Position numbers and translations under genes: made by a program
Shown: piece after piece, positions 31,395 through 50,478 of the stretch
How positions within the stretch are numbered: position 1 is the stretch's first letter
Layout: each line of letters begins with the position of its first letter
The notes under the pieces: generated by a model
What the model saw: only the letters and a program-made list of their open reading frames with translations
Told to the model about the DNA's origin: nothing
Database searches by the model: none
Virus record (IMG/VR): IMGVR_UViG_3300034104_001590
Coordinates: 129-64,128 of that record
DNA from: a virus
Lineage: Duplodnaviria > Caudoviricetes
Length of the DNA stretch: 64,000 bases
Direction: 5' to 3' (one strand)

Positions 31395-31961
31395 TCACCT
31401 TAGTATGTCATTAATTCCTATTAAAACCTTCTTCTTTGTTTTTCTCTCTACAGCTTTTACTCCGTAAGAAGACTCTAAAGTTTTTACCATATCTGGAAGC
31501 TCCGAATAAACCTTCACAACCAAATCTGTATATTTTTTCTTTTCATCAATATCCATCGTAGCAAGAGTCTGTGAATCTAACATAATCATATCATTTAAAA
31601 TCTCAAACATATACTGACTCATCAACTTTGCTCTAAGCCTGTATTCTGGATTAAATGATTCCATCTTTTTGATTCCAGCTACAATTTCATCTGGCACGTT
31701 TCCTTCAATCATCTCAACCAAATCTTTCCTTTGATCGTAACTCTTTCCATAAACAAGCTCCAATGCTTTGTGCAGCCTTTCTCTCTTGTTGCTCAGTTTG
31801 TAGATAGGACTTGTTCTATTTCCTAACAACCAACAGAGTCTTAATTGTTTTGGCTGAAGAGATTTAAACTCATCTATTTCAGCTAACTCTGGATACTCAA
31901 TCCTTAAATCACCATCTCCCTCTAACCCAAAAATAGTAATCTCTACTTCTTTTTTCTCCAT
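31395..31961 (-). CDS. Hypothetical protein upstream of portal (start revised to 31961)
   Basis: The longer start overlaps a terminator hairpin; MEKKEVEITIFG is more plausible. Confidence 0.5.
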   Translation of the reverse strand: MEKKEVEITIFGLEGDGDLRIEYPELAEIDEFKSLQPKQLRLCWLLGNRTSPIYKLSNKRERLHKALELVYGKSYDQRKDLVEMIEGNVPDEIVAGIKKMESFNPEYRLRAKLMSQYMFEILNDMIMLDSQTLATMDIDEKKKYTDLVVKVYSELPDMVKTLESSYGVKAVERKTKKKVLIGINDILR

Positions 31962-37869: not shown

Positions 37870-39933
37870 TTAATCCATAATTTTAAGGATCTTCCCTGTA
37901 TTCTTATCTACTCTAGCCAACTTCATTCTATAATTCGTTTCCTTCGATTGAACATATCGCATAACTACTTGCTTCTCTCCTTCATTACCTCTTATATTCT
38001 CTGGTTCATATCTAGCGTGAGCCTGTGCGTTGATATACGCAAAAGTTATAGCGAATATAGCATCATCATAGTCATATCTGGTATCTGCTGCCTGGTATCT
38101 TGTCTGCCTATGGCTAGTAGAACTCTTCAGATCTTTCTCTACAAAGGTTTTTAGCTGTTCCCATATCCAAGGAACATCAATATTATTTGCATAAGAGTCA
38201 ATCATCTCTTCCGCTTTAGCAATAATACGTGGAGCAGTGTTAGCTTTGTTAGAAATTCCAAACCATTTACCTCCATACGTCTGAAAATACTCTGGCAATT
38301 GGGTATTTGCAGTGAATTTCATCTTAAATCCATGTATCTCCTGGAAATCTACGTGCATATCACCGATATTATTCTCTACAAGCTCCTTAACCCCTCCTCT
38401 TCTCTGCTGATCGTAATATAAACTCTGTAATAACACCTGTAAATAGGTGTATTTAAACTTTTTATCCCTATGGAATACTACTGAAGATACAGAATTTGTA
38501 AGCGCATCCCATATTGCACTACACATCATAGAGTGTCCAGTCTCAGAGTTGATGGGATCGGTTCCTTGATACCACCTATTCTTCCAAACTTCGTTATCTG
38601 GTGGATGATGTATGACAACAGCCGTAGTAGAAATGTCTTCCCTTCCCGTTGTGGGAACCCATCTAGCTCCAATTATACGATATTCCGTTATTAAATCAGG
38701 AGTTGGTTGTGAATGATCCATTATAGGTTCAAAATATCCATACTCAATAGGAACATCTTTACTGTATATGTCGTTTAATCGTTGGTTACAGGTATGTATC
38801 GGCACAAGAGTTCTTGCTTTCCGTAGGAACATATCATCAATTGTGATTGGATAATGTTGGTGAAACTGCACTTTAGCAATTTCTCCTTTTTTGGTTCCCT
38901 CAAGTGCCAAATAGGCTTTACGCTCGTTGTTGATGTGCTCATCATTAACTCCTCTTCGTGCGTATGCGTTGAAAAATAACGGTATGATTCCATATTCATA
39001 GTTCTTTTCTTTCCATTGTGATAGACACATTTTAAATTCTGCCTCAAATACAGATCCTCCCTTATCCATTTCCCCTCCAGTTCCCCAAGCGATAAACTGC
39101 TGTTGCATCGTCATCTTCTTAGTTTCTGGGTTATACTTAAATAAAGCAGGTCTACCTTCCCTCATCATCTCGCCAAATATGTCAAATAGACCAATCTCAT
39201 CGATAAATACTGCTGATGGAGATCCACCATTGATAGCATCTACCTGTGGGCTATCTACCTGGAAGCGCGAAGCACCCCCATCATCTCTACCTTTTTTATC
39301 TCCTTTCTTATCAAAGGACATTACTTGATCTGTCCAGTTCTTTACTTCTTGAGCTAGGTAATCTGGAATCTTTGTATATGTCCACTTTACCTTATCTCTA
39401 AAGATTTCTATCCCCTTATCTTTTGAGTGAGTAACGAATTTAATGAAGTATGATTTGTTGAGGTTTACTCGCTTCATTCCTGCAAGACACATTGTCGTAG
39501 TAAAACCAATCTGTCGGGCCTTACCTATCATCATAGAATATCCGCAATCAAACAAATATAACAGAACTCTTTGAGCTTCCCAGGCTTGATACCTAAGCAT
39601 ACCGTGATCTGCCTTATCTTCCTTTATCCATCCGTATTTATTACAGAAGTAAAGTGTGTTATCGTTGCATCTGGTAATTTCACGAGATAGGAAATCATAC
39701 TGATCCTCTTCATTGTCGAAGTCAGTAATGAGTGTATCATCTTCTAGCCATTGTCTGGCTTGTTCGCAATAAAGCTCAAAGCTCCTGTATTTAATCTTGT
39801 TCTGCCAACCAGAGTTTATAGAGTCAATCCAATCTACAAATTCCTTTGGATAATCAAACTCAGCGTGATTAGGCTTCCATTGAGATGTCTTTACGAGCTT
39901 TGTAACTCTATCGTCTTTTTCTTTAAGACGCAT
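37870..39933 (-). CDS. terL: Terminase large subunit
   Basis: KARQIGFTT (Walker A variant), AVFIDEIG (Walker B), GTDP and DDAIFA nuclease motifs. Confidence 0.9.
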   Translation of the reverse strand: MRLKEKDDRVTKLVKTSQWKPNHAEFDYPKEFVDWIDSINSGWQNKIKYRSFELYCEQARQWLEDDTLITDFDNEEDQYDFLSREITRCNDNTLYFCNKYGWIKEDKADHGMLRYQAWEAQRVLLYLFDCGYSMMIGKARQIGFTTTMCLAGMKRVNLNKSYFIKFVTHSKDKGIEIFRDKVKWTYTKIPDYLAQEVKNWTDQVMSFDKKGDKKGRDDGGASRFQVDSPQVDAINGGSPSAVFIDEIGLFDIFGEMMREGRPALFKYNPETKKMTMQQQFIAWGTGGEMDKGGSVFEAEFKMCLSQWKEKNYEYGIIPLFFNAYARRGVNDEHINNERKAYLALEGTKKGEIAKVQFHQHYPITIDDMFLRKARTLVPIHTCNQRLNDIYSKDVPIEYGYFEPIMDHSQPTPDLITEYRIIGARWVPTTGREDISTTAVVIHHPPDNEVWKNRWYQGTDPINSETGHSMMCSAIWDALTNSVSSVVFHRDKKFKYTYLQVLLQSLYYDQQRRGGVKELVENNIGDMHVDFQEIHGFKMKFTANTQLPEYFQTYGGKWFGISNKANTAPRIIAKAEEMIDSYANNIDVPWIWEQLKTFVEKDLKSSTSHRQTRYQAADTRYDYDDAIFAITFAYINAQAHARYEPENIRGNEGEKQVVMRYVQSKETNYRMKLARVDKNTGKILKIMD

Positions 39934-40075: not shown

Positions 40076-40239
40076 GATTTCTTCTTTTTAAATTTAGACA
40101 TAAACTTTTCTTTGGCTTCCATCTTTTTAGATTCGCCTTTCTCGTGTTTCATTTTATCTTTCTTAGAAGAGTATTTCTCTTCTGCTTCCGAGCCACCATA
40201 TTCCATGATAGCTTTTTTAAGTGCCATTCCTCTTTTCAT
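40072..40239 (-). CDS. Small Lys-rich protein (55 aa)
   Basis: MKRGMALKKAIMEYGGSEAEEKYSSKKDKMKHEKGESKK...; coupled on both sides. Confidence 0.6.
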   Translation of the reverse strand: MKRGMALKKAIMEYGGSEAEEKYSSKKDKMKHEKGESKKMEAKEKFMSKFKKKKS

Positions 40240-40415
40240 TAGTCGCAGTATTTTTTATCTTTAGTATTCTTATACATCAACTTAAAAGGAACCTTAGAAG
40301 TTGGTGCTTCATCTTTAAGGTCAGCAGCAGCAGGTGGTCGACCTTCTACCCTTCCCTTGTCTACATAGCTTCCATTCTTTTTAGGATTAGAAGCGTAATA
40401 CTTATCAGTTTTCAT
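40239..40415 (-). CDS. Small basic protein (58 aa)
   Basis: MKTDKYYASNPKKNGSYVDKGRVEGRPP...; promoter element at 40428-40435. Confidence 0.6.
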   Translation of the reverse strand: MKTDKYYASNPKKNGSYVDKGRVEGRPPAAADLKDEAPTSKVPFKLMYKNTKDKKYCD

Positions 40416-40464
40416 AATCTTTTTTTACAAATATAAGTAATTTTAATTACCAATTATTATAAAC

Positions 40465-40522
40465 ACAAAACCCTGGGCTTTCAACTCCAGGGCCTTATGC
40501 ATAAACCTTTAAATATGAACGA
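40465..40522 (-). ncRNA. Candidate sRNA unit 3 (~55 nt)
   Basis: TATATTTG at 40525-40532; CCCTGG/CCAGGG terminator plus T4; no ORF. Confidence 0.55.
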
Positions 40523-40534
40523 TACAAATATAAT

Positions 40535-40779
40535 AAAAAACCCTAACAGTCTGCGGTAGCTAATCGCACTTATTAGGGGTTGTTACTAGTTATATGGTTG
40601 TTTATGAAGGCAACGTCTTGCACCCATAAAGCAAGTCCACTTTCCCAGTAACCAAAAAGTCCAGTGTAGTGAGCAGATCTTACGGTATGCTGTCTGGAAC
40701 TTGGCCTATGTCTATCTCAACACAGGGGGGAATAAGTTATTCTGAGCGCGCAGTTCTAATGAGATGCGGAATAACAATA
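40535..40779 (-). ncRNA. Candidate structured ncRNA unit 2 (~245 nt)
   Basis: TATATTTG at 40782-40789; at least five stem-loops; terminal CCCTAATA/TGTTAGGG stem plus T6; GC-richer than flanks. Confidence 0.6.
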
Positions 40780-40791
40780 AGCAAATATAAT

Positions 40792-40875
40792 AAAAAAAGG
40801 TAGCTATTAACTACCTTCCGACCAGGGTTACCCCAATCCATTTGTTTGAATCAAACGATTCTTTGTTAGTGAGAA
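40792..40875 (-). ncRNA. Candidate sRNA unit 1 (~85 nt)
   Basis: TATATTTG at 40878-40885; two hairpins, then AAGGTAG/CTACCTT terminator plus T-run. Confidence 0.55.
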
Positions 40876-40886
40876 TACAAATATAA

Positions 40887-41438
40887 TTAAATTTCTATAT
40901 TATCATAATATTCTTCCAAATCTATATTCCTCCTAGGCATTCGATCAAATTCCTTTACGCAATAGAACATCTTTTTTATCGTGCCCTTATAGAAGTATAT
41001 AGGGTTAATCATATAAGTCCTCCTATTCTTATCCATAGTAAACCGAATGACATCGTGCGCACACAGCTCAGATACACTCTTCATTACATAACGCATACTC
41101 ATATCCGTCAACTGCTGAATATCCCTTAAGCTATAATTCTTTAAAGCATTCCCATAGTTCATTTGTTTAACAAAGAACCGAAGCATTTTATTTGTCGCTG
41201 GCTTTAGCTTATCCATAATATCCAGAGACTCAGAGAAGGCCACCATATACCTCATCTTCTTTCTTCTAAATAAGTTTTCTATCAGGACATCTACTTCTGA
41301 ATTATACGCCTCGGCCAACTGATTGAACTGCCCTTTCTCATCTTTGTAGTATAAGTCAAAGTGTTTAATCTTCTTGGCTAATACCCTATCAGCTTCTAGT
41401 AACAGTAAATCAAATACAATGTTATTCTTCTCCTTCAT
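40887..41438 (-). CDS. RepL-like winged-helix DNA-binding protein
   Basis: HTH-like SLRDIQQLTDMSMRYVMKSVSEL followed by YMINPIYFYKG. Confidence 0.6.
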   Translation of the reverse strand: MKEKNNIVFDLLLLEADRVLAKKIKHFDLYYKDEKGQFNQLAEAYNSEVDVLIENLFRRKKMRYMVAFSESLDIMDKLKPATNKMLRFFVKQMNYGNALKNYSLRDIQQLTDMSMRYVMKSVSELCAHDVIRFTMDKNRRTYMINPIYFYKGTIKKMFYCVKEFDRMPRRNIDLEEYYDNIEI

Positions 41439-41631
41439 TATTTTCTTTTAATGTGTCATTGTAAATCAATCCTAATTCGTGTTGACAATCACATAAGTAA
41501 TATGCGTGAGATTCGCTCATAACAATTAATCCGTTTTTAAATACATCAACGCATATTCCACATTCACAAATATTGTTTTCGCGATAAATCTTTTTACCTA
41601 CCCTATCAATAAACCATTGTAAATCTTTCAT
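41422..41631 (-). CDS. Hypothetical protein (CECGIC motif)
   Basis: Coupled ORF in a small operon. Confidence 0.5.
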   Translation of the reverse strand: MKDLQWFIDRVGKKIYRENNICECGICVDVFKNGLIVMSESHAYYLCDCQHELGLIYNDTLKENNEGEE

Positions 41632-41840
41632 TCTTCTGATTTTAAATTTATAAATCCTTCGAAGTCTAATAAAGGAAGGTTATTCCTATCACAATGGACA
41701 CAGAACTCAGCATACTCCTGGGCCTGTTTAATCTCCATTTTTTGAGCACTCTCAATATCATTCAATAGCAGAACTCCACATTGATTAATGTGTTTCTCGA
41801 CTAGCCAATCAATAGCTGTTTGATTATTTTTTTCTTTCAT
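41628..41840 (-). CDS. Hypothetical protein
   Basis: QTAIDWL...AQKME pattern common in Bacteroidota phages. Confidence 0.55.
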   Translation of the reverse strand: MKEKNNQTAIDWLVEKHINQCGVLLLNDIESAQKMEIKQAQEYAEFCVHCDRNNLPLLDFEGFINLKSEE

Positions 41841-42126
41841 CGATAATCTTCTCTACGTTTAACTTTATTTTTTTTAAATTAGAGAGATTCATCTTATGCC
41901 TGCTGTGCTCATAGAAGATCATACCATTCAACGCCCTGCTAAACTCTACCACATTCATACTCCCCTTCAACTTATTACAATCCCCGCAACATGGTACCTT
42001 ATTAGCATTACTCAATACCCCACCACGACTCTTAGGATACAAATGATCCACAGTCCTACTATAATCATCTAACTGCGTCTTACAATACGCACAGACAGAT
42101 AAATCAACCCCTCCCTTACTAATCAT
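41824..42126 (-). CDS. HNH endonuclease (Zn-binding)
   Basis: CAYC...TVDHLYPKSRGG...NKVPCCGDCNKLKG; promoter element at 42133-42140 favours the ATG at 42126. Confidence 0.85.
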   Translation of the reverse strand: MISKGGVDLSVCAYCKTQLDDYSRTVDHLYPKSRGGVLSNANKVPCCGDCNKLKGSMNVVEFSRALNGMIFYEHSRHKMNLSNLKKIKLNVEKIIDERKK

Positions 42127-42158
42127 ATCCAACAAAGATAATAAATAATCCTAATACT

Positions 42159-42351
42159 TTGTTACCACCTCTATGCGTAAACAACTTGTTACCACCTATA
42201 ACCAACTAAAATCCCTATCCCCATTGACTTCTAACAAAATCCTCTATATACTGTTTATCCCTAAAGATATAAGCAAGAAAATCAATGATTAGTTTATAAT
42301 ACTAAGTTATGTCGGTTATGTAATAAACGATATTACTTATTATGCGTAAAC
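42159..42351. repeat. Short direct repeats TTGTTACCACCT (42159, 42186) and TATGCGTAAAC (42172, 42341)
   Basis: Exact repeats in the long intergenic region. Confidence 0.7.
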
Positions 42352-42919
42352 GTAGCTCACCATCCCATAGTACTATTACCCCTCCCATATCCTAATTCCC
42401 CTACACCAGATATAAGTATTTCATCTATTATCCCTCCTGGTTTTTTAATTATCCACTGGTCGTATCAAAAATAAATCTGTATTCTTCAAGGACTTATACG
42501 TAGTAACCTATCCCCTCCCTATTCTCAAAGGAAAGTCAATCTCAACAATCACTTGCATTGACTTAACTTAACTATCTTTGTTTCAGTTAGTTACATTCAC
42601 TTTGTTAGTGCTTGGATCCCCTTTATTTTTGCTCTTATTTATTGCTAACTTATTAATTTTCAGTGCGTTATATATTCTTGATGATATGCTGAGAATAATA
42701 ATTGCACACTTTTATTCATTAATTATGAACATACCCACCTAAAATATGGTTTAATCTTGCATAAAAATATGGTAACAATACGTCATTTAATATCTACTAT
42801 TTCACTGCAAAAGTCACGTTTTTTGTGCTGAAATCAATAATTTTTAGTGTTATTTAAATCATTGATTATCAGTTAGTTAGCTAATTTATATCTAATTATT
42901 TTTAATTATTTTTAAATTT

Positions 42920-42953
42920 TTTGTTATCAATTCAAAATTTATATATATGTTTG
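42920..42953 (+). promoter_or_regulatory. Putative main early promoter (TTTG...TATGTTTG)
   Basis: -33 TTTG at 42920-42923 and -7 element at 42946-42953 with AT-rich upstream DNA. Confidence 0.65.
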
Positions 42954-42955
42954 TA

Positions 42956-43420
42956 TCGTCATCATTGGTTAACGAACTACTAAAATGAATGACACACACG
43001 AAAAGACTAGTTAACATATATTCTTGTTAATCTCGAAGTTTACTAGTTGTTTAGGTTAATCCTAATTAGTTCCTATCTTATAGGCGTGTGAAGTTCTTTG
43101 TTTATTGATAAGATAGCGTGTAAAAAATTAAATTTTAACGGGTAGACGCTGCACCTAGTCCATGCAAGTTAACACTAGTAGAACGTTGTGAAACGTGGCT
43201 ATAAACTAACATAGGGATATGTTATGGTCTATTGCTTTGAAAGAAAGTATGCATCTAATCGCGTATATGTATGGGGGTAAACTATGTTTACTCAGAACGC
43301 TATTAATATAAATTAATAAACGAAGATAGGTTAACACCTTGAAATAGAATAGAAAAAAAATTCGCCTTGTTTACTATGAGTAATTAACTTCGAGCGAAAC
43401 GAAGCGAGGCACTAACCAAT
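42956..43420 (+). ncRNA. Candidate long structured leader/ncRNA with boxA-like site and tRNA-like 3' element
   Basis: No ORF of 60 aa or more; more than ten hand-paired stems; GTTCTTTG at 43093-43100. Confidence 0.55.
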
Positions 43421-43434
43421 TAATAAACACAAAA

Positions 43435-50368: not shown

Positions 50369-50478
50369 TATATTTGCTGTGTCGAACCTCAACTTCGATT
50401 ACATTTAAAGTTGTTTATATACTCTTATCATATATATAAACTACCCTAGTCAAGTTGAGGAAGTGGCTAGGGTTTTTT
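50369..50478 (+). promoter_or_regulatory. Promoter (TATATTTG) plus leader with hairpin and terminator whose loops are complementary
   Basis: GTCGAA/TTCGAT hairpin with loop CCTCAAC; ACCCTAGTCA/TGGCTAGGGT stem plus T-run with loop containing GTTGAGG. Confidence 0.65.

What the first reader, a model, noticed from the sequence alone, without database searches (positions are those of the whole stretch)
40428..40885. Tandem array of promoter-small RNA-terminator units
Seen: four identical TATATTTG elements on the minus strand within 460 nt (40878, 40782, 40525, 40428). The first three are each followed by non-coding sequence ending in a terminator hairpin and T-run (about 85, 245 and 55 nt). For units 1 and 2 the next promoter starts within 3 nt of the T-run. 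TAGCTACC recurs in the terminators of units 1 and 2, allowing alternative pairing. Inference: a dedicated phage sRNA cassette that regulates phage genes or silences or decoys host functions. It lacks repeats, so CRISPR tools would miss it.
Basis: partly seen in the sequence, partly recalled or inferred. Interest (0 to 1): 0.8.

Follow-up and report, generated by a model that had tools for sequence, protein, structure and literature searches.

The report
Phage non-coding RNA cassette array

Summary
Four TTATATTTG boxes lie on the minus strand at the stated places. They match the Bacteroidota sigma-A -7 box and are far commoner here than chance allows. The first three are each followed by ORF-free sequence ending in a hairpin plus T-run (about 82, 243 and 55-60 nt).

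The middle unit (40777->40535) is the substance of the finding. It belongs to a structured-RNA family with no Rfam match. I found it in 53 viral and 100 metagenome stretches and in none of 185,579 prokaryotic species genomes. A 52-pair structure has strong covariation support (94-95% of cells paired, against 79-80% in shuffles and 34-45% in slid controls).

Members are either stand-alone promoter-terminator cassettes or sit inside phage tRNA arrays. Their apical loops are nearly always a 6-nt palindrome or a GACG tetraloop, which suggests self-association. That is inferred, not shown.

Units 1 and 3 occur only in close kin and have little evidence of function. Relatives carry other units (X, Y) in the same place, swapped as whole cassettes.

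Transcription of this phage's units is untested. A base-pairing "sRNA regulator" role is not supported, and the function is unknown.

The parts
40887..41438 (-). Upstream gene p183, a weak RepL-like winged-helix protein. Its stop codon is 1 nt from promoter box 1.
   Evidence: ORF list. Pfam RepL 21.2 bits against a cut-off of 20.3. Homologues in 45 of 80 TerL-related loci, 40-76% identical apart from the 100%-identical L003.
40878..40885 (-). Promoter box 1 (TATATTTG; Bacteroidota sigma-A -7 box type).
   Evidence: Motif definition from PMC9723704 passages.
40792..40873 (-). Unit 1 RNA (predicted, about 82 nt): a variable 5' part, hairpin A (40820-40838, GAUUGGGG-UAA-CCCUGGUC), then a terminator hairpin (40795-40819) and T-run (40792-40798).
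   Evidence: Fold z -4.24. Terminator scanner hit. The 3' half is kept in L004 and L007 directly after the p183 stop, with a compensatory stem change GGTAG/CTACC to GGGAG/CTCCC. The hairpin A motif is found only in 4 close-kin viral contigs.
40782..40789 (-). Promoter box 2.
   Evidence: The same box lies about 99-107 nt upstream of the family anchor in many stand-alone members.
40535..40777 (-). Unit 2 RNA (predicted, about 243 nt), a member of the new structured-RNA family. The variable 5' domain is 40737-40777 and the conserved body is 40536-40736.
   Evidence: Model R1 gives 212.3 bits, E 1e-68, and is the only hit in the window. Covariation counts.
40705..40726 (-). P2 hairpin (8 bp, loop GAGAUA).
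   Evidence: Helix 1: 98.7% of cells paired with 4 of 8 pairs changed on both sides; 7 of 8 on alignment A3.
40659..40700 (-). P3 helix enclosing the GCAUACCGUAAGAUCUGCUCACU module. The search anchor is 40670-40690.
   Evidence: P3 pairs covary (AU/UA/GC at one pair, GC/UA at another). The module's invariance is partly by construction because it was the search pattern. It also occurs in a different RNA in L214, L224, L245 and L230, and the L224 copy lies beside tRNA genes.
40582..40652 (-). P4 helix (GUUACUGG / CUAGUAAC) with a long arm capped by a GACG tetraloop (40614-40617).
   Evidence: Helices 4-7. The arm is long, short or minimal in different members.
40541..40578 (-). P5 terminator hairpin with a conserved internal loop (UAAG/ACUG) and the 9-nt apical loop AUUAGCUAC (40556-40564) holding the palindrome UAGCUA. 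The T-run is 40535-40540.
   Evidence: Helix 8: 8 of 12 pairs changed on both sides and 9 of 12 on A3. Loop census.
40525..40532 (-). Promoter box 3.
40461..40520 (-). Unit 3 RNA (predicted, about 55-60 nt): a 5' single strand, then hairpin 40463-40500 and an interrupted T-run.
   Evidence: Fold z -4.04. Found only in near-identical kin: L003/L207, L268 and L342.
40437..40450 (-). Inverted repeat GTAATT-AA-AATTAC just upstream of promoter box 4. It may be an operator; this is untested.
   Evidence: Sequence.
40428..40435 (-). Promoter box 4, which drives the p58 gene and the genes after it. The ATG is at 40415, giving a leader of about 8 nt.
40239..40415 (-). p58, a small ORF downstream of the array. 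It is 98% identical in relatives whose p183 is only 69-76% identical.
   Evidence: No Pfam or PHROG match.
37870..39933 (-). Probable large terminase subunit, used here as the landmark gene.
   Evidence: PHROG 5989, E 8.7e-9. tblastn gives 22-24% identity to T4-like gp17. 167 relatives in viral contigs.

Best explanation
Window 40885-40428 (minus strand) is a tandem array of three self-contained non-coding transcription units. Each unit is a Bacteroidota-type sigma-A -7 box (TTATATTTG), an RNA, then a hairpin plus U-run. A fourth copy of the box drives p58 and the genes leading to terL. The array sits at a variable insertion hot spot between p183 and p58.

The units behave as movable cassettes. 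They are joined at identical 'T-run + TTATATTTG' seams, and close relatives carry other combinations: U1-U2-Y-U3, X-Y-U2, X'-U1-U2 and X alone.

Unit 2 (about 243 nt) is the functional core. It belongs to a new family of folded phage RNAs made of an optional 5' domain, P2, P3 with a near-invariant 23-nt module, a P4 arm and a P5 terminator hairpin. The family occurs as stand-alone cassettes or inside phage tRNA arrays. I think it acts in trans as a folded particle rather than as an antisense regulator.

I also think it self-associates through self-complementary apical loops (here UAGCUA on P5 and GACG on P4). It probably binds or sequesters a host or phage factor connected with tRNA or translation during infection.

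Unit 1's 3' half doubles as the 3'-end element and terminator of the upstream operon. Unit 3 is a short RNA, or only an insulating promoter-terminator pair.

Shown here: the motif statistics, the lack of coding potential, the conservation, the covariation and the genomic contexts. Inferred: transcription in this phage, oligomerisation and the trans-acting role.
For: Promoters
- The box is enriched.
- The same TAnnTTTG box sits 12-25 nt upstream of many start codons in the window.
- Only 3 of 58 ORFs have a Shine-Dalgarno-like word, and the upstream regions are 49% A. This fits a Bacteroidota host (PMC9723704 passages; PMC6847099 abstract).

Family
- The anchor pattern is found in 53 viral loci and 100 metagenome stretches, and in 0 of 185,579 species genomes.
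- There is no Rfam gathering-level hit in the window. The only hits in 15 family loci are tRNAs.

Structure
- Alignment A2 (30 sequences, 52 pairs): 93.9% of cells paired against 80.3% in shuffles (0 of 500 as high). 29 pairs and 194 cells change on both sides, against 63 cells in shuffles. Slid controls give 35-44%.
- Alignment A3 (65 distinct metagenome sequences): 95.3% against 79.0%, with 38 of 52 pairs and 478 cells against 144.
- The model finds 0 hits in 846 kb of unrelated viral contigs.
- 83 of 94 members have no ATG ORF of 30 codons or more.

A discrete RNA
- In some members the promoter box sits 53-57 nt before the anchor, so the RNA would start at P2. In others a tRNA 3' end abuts P2 or P3.
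- 18 of 53 loci lie within 1 kb of same-strand tRNA genes.

Loops
- Of 94 unique members, the P5 apex is UGAUCA in 66, GACG in 13 (plus 1 GACGUC), UAGCUA in 7, UGGCCA in 1 and something else in 6.
- The P4 apex is GACG in 35, ACGCG in 18 and GGUACC in 12.
- The three palindromes differ by paired changes that keep self-complementarity.
- On a tree of the cores, the starred branches force at least 7 changes of the GACG label at the P5 apex, which otherwise mostly holds UGAUCA.
- GACG loops and 6-nt palindromic loops are both documented homodimer kissing motifs (PMC7357161 and PMC516450 passages).

Cassette shuffling.

Sharing of the core
- The unit 2 core is 97% identical in L005 and L007, where p183 is 72-76% identical.
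- In lake DNA runs the summed contig depth over the core is about 5-25 times that of the flanks, so many genomes share it.
Against: - There is no transcript evidence for this phage. The one RNA-library hit (run X20) is a 198-nt assembled contig of a relative that covers only 40640-40704. Contigs cannot show transcript ends or strand, and DNA carry-over is possible.
- Unit 2's fold is only modestly better than shuffles (z -2.25).
- The simple terminator scan missed the hairpins of units 2 and 3.
- No -33 element was looked for, and terminator stems occupy that space.
- The near-invariance of the P3 module is partly an artefact of using it as the search pattern.
- The structure was derived from the same sequences on which it was first counted, and A3 was aligned to the model, so both counts lean towards the structure.
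- Kissing is unproven. Only two or three palindrome switches exist, and UGGCCA is a single sequence.
- 6 of 94 P5 apices and roughly 28 of 94 P4 apices are of other or undetermined type.
- GACG could equally be a tertiary or protein contact.
- Recombination of modules could mimic repeated switching on the tree, which rests on 124 columns with many unresolved forks.
- This phage has no tRNA genes, so a tRNA-linked role is not obvious here.
- No conserved protein partner was found among neighbouring genes.
- Units 1 and 3 have no conservation beyond close kin.
Confidence: 0.6

Rival explanations
1. Unit 2 is a cis-acting leader (a riboswitch or attenuator). A ligand- or protein-sensing fold (P2-P4) controls the P5 terminator and so controls read-through into p58 and terL.
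For: P5 is a terminator-like hairpin placed upstream of genes on the same strand. The body has aptamer-like features: a multi-helix junction with conserved unpaired nucleotides.
Against: A fresh promoter box starts 2 nt after the T-run here and directly after it in several other members, so downstream genes do not depend on read-through. 18 of 53 members sit inside tRNA arrays with tRNA genes nearby rather than an ORF to control. P5's internal and apical loops are conserved in sequence or kind, which is unusual for an expression platform. I did not search for an alternative antiterminator pairing.
Confidence: 0.1
2. The family is a ribozyme or RNA-processing element tied to phage tRNA maturation, as the HDV-like theta ribozymes are. 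The copy in this tRNA-less phage would be a relic or would act on host RNAs.
For: Members lie in tRNA arrays, and in three groups a tRNA 3' end abuts the RNA (L219/L238, L211/L228, L227/L237/L246). The P3 loop is highly conserved and recurs in a second RNA type beside tRNA genes. Theta ribozymes show that phage tRNA-adjacent catalytic RNAs exist, mostly with Bacteroidota hosts (PMC10879173 abstract and passages).
Against: No match to any ribozyme family in Rfam at E up to 10 over the locus. Many members are stand-alone cassettes with their own promoter and terminator and no tRNA within 1 kb (35 of 53). The window holds no tRNA. Cleavage cannot be tested here.
Confidence: 0.1
3. Only transcriptional punctuation: the units are stacked terminators and promoters that insulate the late packaging operon. 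The RNAs are by-products without function, and unit 2's conservation reflects a DNA-level site such as a protein-binding palindrome or packaging signal near terL.
For: The array lies at an operon boundary upstream of terL. Units 1 and 3 are poorly conserved. Palindromes such as TAGCTA, TGATCA and GGTACC could be protein or restriction-type sites.
Against: Compensatory changes keep RNA helices intact across 65-94 diverged sequences, which a DNA site does not explain. Most family members are nowhere near terL: the model found the family in only 3 of 80 TerL-linked loci. The palindromes change sequence while staying self-complementary.
Confidence: 0.07
4. One reading: the units are classical base-pairing sRNAs that silence phage or host mRNAs through short seed regions.
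For: They have the general shape of bacterial sRNAs, with a promoter, a short RNA and an intrinsic terminator. Units 1, 3, X and Y have single-stranded 5' parts. Bacteroidota do use such sRNAs (PMC9723704 passages).
Against: A crude duplex scan of the 5' parts of units 1 and 3 against 85 phage start regions was no better than shuffles. Unit 2 is almost fully paired, and what is conserved is structure. The host is unknown, so host targets could not be scanned.
Confidence: 0.13

Closest known systems
ROOL and GOLLD RNAs (large phage/prophage RNAs that form RNA-only cages)
   Same: They are encoded by phages, often near tRNA islands, and their function is unknown. GOLLD has a conserved 3' part and a variable 5' part. 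Their quaternary structure is held by kissing loops (PMC12286853 passages; PMC5737381 passages). The family here also occurs in phage tRNA arrays (18 of 53), has an optional or variable 5' domain and carries self-complementary loops.
   Different: There is no sequence or model match. It is about 165-260 nt long, not 500-800 nt. It was found only in uncultivated phage contigs, with 0 hits in prokaryote genomes and hence no prophage evidence. Oligomerisation is only inferred.
RAGATH-14 RNA (Rfam RF03145)
   Same: It is the best Rfam hit, although far below threshold. Its central hairpin has the same 9-nt loop AUUAGCUAC and a similar internal loop as P5 of unit 2 (alignment).
   Different: The score is 21.2 bits against a gathering score of 149.1, with E = 0.28. 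The alignment spans the end of unit 2, the promoter and unit 3, so it does not describe one RNA. No RAGATH-14 hit at E up to 5 appeared in 9 other family loci, although that larger search would have hidden a 21-bit hit. What RAGATH stands for, and its typical context, I know only from recall; the name is not in the main text of PMC5737381 and no held paper mentions RAGATH-14.
Retroviral dimer-linkage hairpins (HIV-1 DIS palindromic loop; MoMuLV/MoMuSV GACG tetraloops)
   Same: The loop types match: a 6-nt palindrome in a 7-9-nt loop, and GACG tetraloops. Both are documented to mediate homodimer kissing (PMC7357161 and PMC516450 passages).
   Different: The biology is unrelated (genome dimerisation in RNA viruses). 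This is a resemblance of motif, not of family. No binding test was possible.
phi29 prohead RNA (pRNA)
   Same: It is a phage-encoded structured RNA of about 170 nt that multimerises by loop-loop pairing and serves DNA packaging (PMC7357161 passages). The unit here lies just upstream of terL.
   Different: There is no Rfam pRNA hit. pRNA uses two complementary, non-palindromic loops. Most members of the family here are not near packaging genes (3 of 80 TerL loci). This phage has a T4-like terminase rather than a phi29-type motor.
HDV-like theta ribozymes next to phage tRNAs
   Same: They are small structured RNAs in phages, mostly of Bacteroidota, that abut tRNA 3' ends (PMC10879173). Three groups of the family here abut a tRNA 3' end.
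   Different: There is no HDV-like model hit. The RNA here is much larger, has its own promoter and terminator in many members, and catalysis is untested.
Stable RNAs of the phage T4 tRNA gene cluster (species 1 and 2; recalled, not checked in any call)
   Same: They are small stable RNAs of unknown function co-encoded with phage tRNA genes.
   Different: No sequence was compared. This is a recollection and only a lead.

Membership tests
RAGATH-14 (RF03145) | Covariance-model score at or above the curated gathering score (149.1 bits). | tested here: not met
   21.2 bits, E 0.28. Nothing at gathering level in the window.
RAGATH-14 (RF03145) | Central hairpin with the loop AUUAGCUAC. | tested here: met
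   Identical loop in the cmscan alignment. Within the new family, however, this loop is confined to 7 of 94 members.
ROOL / GOLLD | Match to the Rfam models. | tested here: not met
   No hit in the window at gathering level or at E up to 10 over the locus. Only tRNAs were found in 15 family loci.
ROOL / GOLLD | Phage-encoded and often near tRNA islands. | tested here: met
   Met for the family: 18 of 53 loci lie within 1 kb of same-strand tRNAs. Not met for this window, which has 0 tRNAs.
ROOL / GOLLD | Homo-oligomeric RNA-only assembly. | not testable with these tools
   There are only loop-sequence patterns. No RNA structure or binding tool was available.
Bacteroidota sigma-A transcription unit | -7 box TAnnTTTG at -12 to -5. 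| tested here: met
   Definition from PMC9723704 passages.
Bacteroidota sigma-A transcription unit | Upstream (-33) element. The motif is recalled and was not taken from any call. | not tested
   Terminator stems of the preceding unit occupy that space. No scan was run.
Bacteroidota sigma-A transcription unit | Mapped transcription start and 3' end. | not testable with these tools
   Only assembled contigs were available, and they cannot show ends.
Trans-acting base-pairing sRNA | Target complementarity better than chance. | tested here: not met
   5' parts of units 1 and 3 against 85 phage start regions: 158 of 200 and 112 of 200 shuffles were as good. Host targets are untestable because the host is unknown.
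phi29-type pRNA | Rfam pRNA model match, and two mutually complementary non-palindromic loops. | tested here: not met
   No hit. The loops are self-complementary.
HDV-like / theta ribozyme | HDV-like nested double-pseudoknot model match. | tested here: not met
   No HDV-family hit at E up to 10.
Riboswitch or attenuator leader | The terminator gates the only route of transcription into the downstream gene. | tested here: not met
   A promoter box follows the T-run by 2 nt. 18 of 53 members lie in tRNA arrays.

The most novel reading that the evidence does not exclude
The unit 2 family is a compact (about 200 nt) phage RNA that builds RNA-only homo-oligomers through two orthogonal self-complementary loops. 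P4 carries GACG, ACGCG or GGUACC, and P5 carries UGAUCA, UAGCUA or GACG. It would be a small-format counterpart of the ROOL and GOLLD cages. Its near-invariant P3 module would be the site that captures a host translation or tRNA-metabolism factor during infection. It spreads between unrelated lake phages as a self-contained promoter-RNA-terminator cassette.
Probability: 0.3. Interest if true: 0.85.

Novelty: new variant of a known kind. Interest (0 to 1): 0.64.

Why it matters
Phage-encoded structured RNAs of unknown function, such as ROOL and GOLLD, have recently been shown to form RNA-only assemblies, yet what they do remains open.

A much smaller family with a simple five-helix fold would be an easier experimental system. 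It has clear covariation, two candidate dimerisation loops that nature has swapped repeatedly, and more than 90 natural variants. It could be studied by in-vitro transcription, native gels, cryo-EM and loop-swap genetics.

Such a system could address why phages pair such RNAs with tRNA gene sets. The locus also shows that non-coding RNA genes can move between phages as complete promoter-to-terminator cassettes at recombination-prone seams. Gene-centred annotation misses this kind of 'moron'.

Tried and rejected
- blastn of 40200-41500 against 50,697 phage records gave no match. TerL is only 22-24% identical to T4-like phages, so no cultured relative or named host emerged.
BLAST of the units against those fetched matched only L109 plus one weak 45-nt hit in L132. 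Model R1 later found nothing in 100 of them.
- RAGATH-14 membership was rejected. A tRNA or tmRNA identity was rejected.
- A unit 1 motif scan found only 4 close-kin contigs, so unit 1 is not a wide family.
- A neighbour-gene census of 53 family loci (L202-L253 and L109) found a syntenic block (DUF3310 kinase-like, MazG-like, tail fibre, GroES-like and others). It found no RNA-related partner.
- Weak R1 hits in L073 and L076-L079 are only a P2-like hairpin plus a terminator upstream of terL. The rest of that alignment is spurious.
- Sequencing runs: 20 rows hold the stretch or a part of it. The one RNA run (X20) holds 0.04 of the sampled words. Laid out, it gave one 198-nt contig of a relative over 40640-40704 and no cover elsewhere. 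This is not evidence for or against transcription of this phage.
- A link between loop types was noted: P5-GACG members mostly have ACGCG on P4 (9 against 2), while palindrome-P5 members have 8 against 32 (Fisher P 3e-4). The rows are related, so I do not lean on it.
- A recalled likeness of the P3 module to part of 23S rRNA's L11-binding region was considered. I dropped it because I could not test it with sequence obtained from a tool.
- Supplements of the papers were closed. The RAGATH motif descriptions are not in the main text of PMC5737381 and may be in its supplement, which I could not see.
Full report
**Setting**

The window is almost all of a 64,128-bp linear IMG/VR virus record, estimated 94% complete. 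Minus-strand structural genes run from about 42126 down to 773, and plus-strand replication genes run from 43435 upward. The finding lies in the minus-strand module. It sits between a 183-aa ORF (p183, weakly RepL-like) and a run of small ORFs that leads to a probable large terminase.

No cultured phage is close. blastn of the locus found nothing in 50,697 phage records, and TerL is only 22-24% identical to T4-like gp17. Sequencing runs that hold the stretch are mostly labelled lake-water or freshwater metagenomes.

**Checking the observation**

The word occurs 21 times in the window against 8.4 expected, and no shuffle reaches 21. The longer TTATATTTG occurs 10 times against 2.6, four of them here. 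Four on one strand within 458 nt has P of about 3e-8 to 3e-6.

The word is the sigma-A -7 box of Bacteroidota (TAnnTTTG, at -12 to -5; passages of PMC9723704). In this window the same box sits 12-25 nt upstream of many start codons, among them 4324, 13791, 16821, 22909, 29177, 37860, 40435, 42140, 52174 and 58751. Only 3 of 58 ORFs have a Shine-Dalgarno-like word, and the upstream regions are 49% A. That is the Bacteroidota pattern (abstract of PMC6847099 in the listing). I therefore read the boxes as real promoters for a Bacteroidota host. The host assignment is an inference.

No minus-strand ORF of 30 aa or more lies within any one unit; the single 34-aa ORF listed there (40737-40841) runs across the unit 1/unit 2 joint. 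Each of the first three boxes is followed by a hairpin and a T-run (folds). A simple terminator scanner flagged only the first. With the start 5 nt after the box, the units are about 82, 243 and 55-60 nt. The next box follows the T-run by 2 nt for units 1 and 2. TAGCTACC is indeed in both terminators.

**Relatives and the architecture**

TerL fetched 80 related loci out of 167 confirmed. BLAST of the units found them only in the closest kin: L003, L005, L007, and part of unit 1 in L004.

Among the 45 loci that hold both flanking genes, the p183-p58 spacer ranges from 23 nt to 1.8 kb. In two loci I inspected, L016 and L077, a 292-aa ORF lies between the two genes, and about two dozen more have a spacer of about 1.0-1.2 kb, so this is an insertion hot spot.

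The kin that have non-coding units have different sets:
- L004: the 3' half of unit 1 directly after the p183 stop, then a unit X.
- L005: X', a spacer, U1, U2.
- L007: unit 1's 3' half, X, Y, U2.
- L342, a metagenome contig: five boxes in a row and four units, U1-U2-Y-U3.

The seams are always the same 'T-run + TTATATTTG'.

**Unit 2 is a member of a wide RNA family**

Its roughly 200-nt body is 97% identical in L005 and L007, while the first 55 nt differ. Exact-pattern scans with pieces of the body found other, unrelated viral contigs. A 21-mer anchor with one free position found 53 viral loci (45 unique among the 54 stretches compared). It found 100 metagenome stretches and none in one genome each of 185,579 prokaryotic species.

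Rfam has nothing for it. There were 0 gathering-level hits in the window, only tRNAs in 15 family loci, and only weak hits at E up to 10 over the locus.

The best of those weak hits, RAGATH-14, scores 21.2 bits against a gathering score of 149.1. It rests on one hairpin with the identical loop AUUAGCUAC, plus unit 3's terminator. It is a lead to a possibly shared hairpin module, not membership.

**Structure**

An alignment of 30 diverse members from P2 to the T-run (A2) supports five elements:
- P2, with loop GAGAUA.
- P3, which encloses a short helix and the module GCAUACCGUWAGAUCUGCUCACU.
- P4 (GUUAYUGG ... CYAGUAAC), flanked by GGAAR and UAUAAC, with an arm of variable length.
- P5, the terminator hairpin with a conserved internal loop.

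On my 52-pair structure, 93.9% of cells pair against 80.3% in shuffles and 35-44% when partners are slid. 29 pairs and 194 cells change on both sides, against 63 cells in shuffles. RNAalifold had independently found P2, P4 and P5, with 20 of 33 pairs compensated.

A covariance model built from A2 (R1) gave the following:
- One copy in the window, 40536-40736, at 212 bits.
- 38 of 43 viral family loci at 68 bits or more.
- 73 matches in 80 metagenome loci.
- Nothing in 846 kb of unrelated viral contigs.

On the 65 distinct metagenome sequences, 95.3% of cells pair and 38 of 52 pairs are compensated.

Some caveats apply. The structure came from these sequences, A3 was fitted to the model, and the P3 module's invariance is partly due to its use as the search anchor. 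The RNA is not coding: 83 of 94 unique members lack any ATG ORF of 30 codons, and lengths vary from 163 to 258 nt by indels in helix arms.

**Contexts**

Of 53 viral loci, 29 have a TAnnTTTG box within 150 nt upstream of the anchor. It usually lies about 100-107 nt away, giving an RNA with a 5' domain, or 53-57 nt away, so that the RNA would start right at P2. 18 of 53 lie within 1 kb of same-strand tRNA genes. In three groups a tRNA's 3' end abuts P2 or P3.

Two independent devices, promoter placement and a tRNA 3' end, thus define the same 5' boundary. This argues for a discrete RNA whose 5' domain is optional. Neighbouring protein genes gave no RNA-related partner.

In lake DNA runs the summed contig depth over the unit 2 core is 5-25 times that of the flanks, and many contigs diverge at its edges. 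The core is therefore shared by many genomes in those communities.

One aquatic metatranscriptome assembly holds a 198-nt contig of a relative, with a covarying P2 visible in the overhang. This shows only that a family member was present in an RNA library.

**The loops**

Across 94 unique full-length members (124 of 154 anchor hits were not cut and had a T-run), the loop types are as follows:

| Position | Loop type (number of members) |
|---|---|
| P5 apex | UGAUCA (66), GACG (13, plus 1 GACGUC), UAGCUA (7, including this window), UGGCCA (1), other (6) |
| P4 apex | GACG (35, including this window), ACGCG (18), GGUACC (12), other, none or undetermined (about 28) |

The three P5 palindromes differ by paired substitutions that keep self-complementarity. 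Six self-complementary bases inside a 7-9-nt loop cannot pair within the loop.

On a tree of the cores with the loops left out, the starred branches force at least 7 changes of the GACG label at the P5 apex, which otherwise mostly holds UGAUCA. UAGCUA arose once or twice. The tree is short and poorly resolved, and recombination could contribute.

Six-nucleotide palindromic loops and GACG tetraloops are both established homodimer kissing motifs in retroviral RNAs (passages of PMC7357161 and PMC516450). Kissing loops also hold together the phage RNAs ROOL and GOLLD, which are likewise often near tRNA islands (passages of PMC12286853).

From this I infer that the RNA self-associates. With two such loops per molecule, it could form a closed dimer or higher assemblies. 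This is the boldest part of the reading and is unproven.

**Units 1 and 3**

Unit 1's 3' half (hairpin A plus the terminator) is conserved in kin. In L004 and L007 it follows the p183 stop directly, with a compensatory change in the terminator stem. It is therefore first of all the 3'-end element of the upstream operon. In this window, and in L003, L005 and L342, an extra box and about 45 nt precede it. Its motif occurs only in 4 close-kin viral contigs.

Unit 3 occurs only in near-identical kin. Neither unit's 5' part pairs with this phage's start regions better than shuffles do. These units may be short RNAs or mere punctuation, and I cannot tell which.

**What it is most likely doing**

I take the array to be stacked, independently transcribed non-coding cassettes. 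Unit 2 is a trans-acting folded RNA particle whose function lies in its conserved P3 module and junctions, and whose loops mediate self-association. A link with phage tRNA sets suggests translation or tRNA metabolism, or defence against tRNA-targeting immunity, but this phage has no tRNA genes.

The rivals are given in their own section: a cis leader or riboswitch, a ribozyme or tRNA-processing element, pure punctuation or a DNA site, and classical seed-pairing sRNAs. Each is weakened by a specific observation, but none is excluded.

**Novelty**

My searches found no description of such a family. The terms and results were:
- 'RAGATH-14': 0 papers.
- Phage, tRNA genes, structured RNA, ROOL, GOLLD.
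- Phage, adjacent to tRNA, RNA motif, covariation, metagenome.
- Phage-encoded, structured noncoding RNA, kissing loop, homodimer, Bacteroidota.

Text search cannot find a motif known only by a picture or in a supplement, and supplements were closed. I rate the family as a new variant of a known kind (phage-encoded structured RNAs of unknown function). It is of real but not extraordinary interest unless the oligomer reading proves true.

Noticed in passing
window 50369-50477 (+): A further TATATTTG box is followed by about 97 nt without an ORF and a hairpin CCCTAG...CTAGGG plus T6, making a fourth promoter-RNA-terminator unit in the replication module. It is 89% alike in L342:11614-11713. About 270 nt more of ORF-free sequence follows, up to 50746.
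   Followed up: partly
window 42127-43434: A 1.3-kb ORF-poor region lies between the divergent structural and replication modules. It holds repeated words (TTGTTACCACC twice within 40 nt; several CCCTCCC). It may be an origin or control region.
   Followed up: no
window 32012 (-) to 31961: A TATCTTTG box is followed at once by a hairpin (TAGGGTAGG...CCTACCCTA) and T4, just before the ORF start at 31961. This looks like a promoter-proximal terminator-like hairpin, possibly an attenuator.
   Followed up: no
window 40437-40450 (-): An inverted repeat GTAATT-AA-AATTAC lies directly upstream of the p58 promoter box. It is absent at the equivalent place in L004, L005 and L007, and may be an operator.
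   Followed up: no
L342:600-1170 (-); L007:1525-2050; L005:510-1010; L004:1125-1265: Close relatives carry different sets of RNA cassettes (U1, U2, U3, X, Y) at the same hot spot, joined at identical 'T-run + TTATATTTG' seams. Unit Y is 95-100% alike in L007, L260, L307 and L342, and its terminator recurs after the family RNA in L210.
   Followed up: partly
It behaves as a portable functional module.
   Followed up: partly
L230:1234-1293 (-): A sub-threshold type III hammerhead ribozyme match (36.1 bits against a gathering score of 48.5, E 2e-4) in a contig that also holds the P3 module.
   Followed up: no
L073, L076, L077, L078, L079 (about 120 nt upstream of terL): A P2-like hairpin with the GAGAUA loop is followed by a terminator right upstream of terL in more distant relatives. 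It may be a remnant or a minimal version of the cassette.
   Followed up: partly
window 40239-40415 (-) against 40887-41438 (-): The 58-aa ORF downstream of the array is 98% identical in relatives whose p183 is only 69-76% identical. This is unusually strong conservation for a tiny protein with no known family.
   Followed up: no
window 41824-42135 (-): A small HNH endonuclease gene lies a few genes upstream of the terminase, an arrangement common in phage packaging modules.
   Followed up: no
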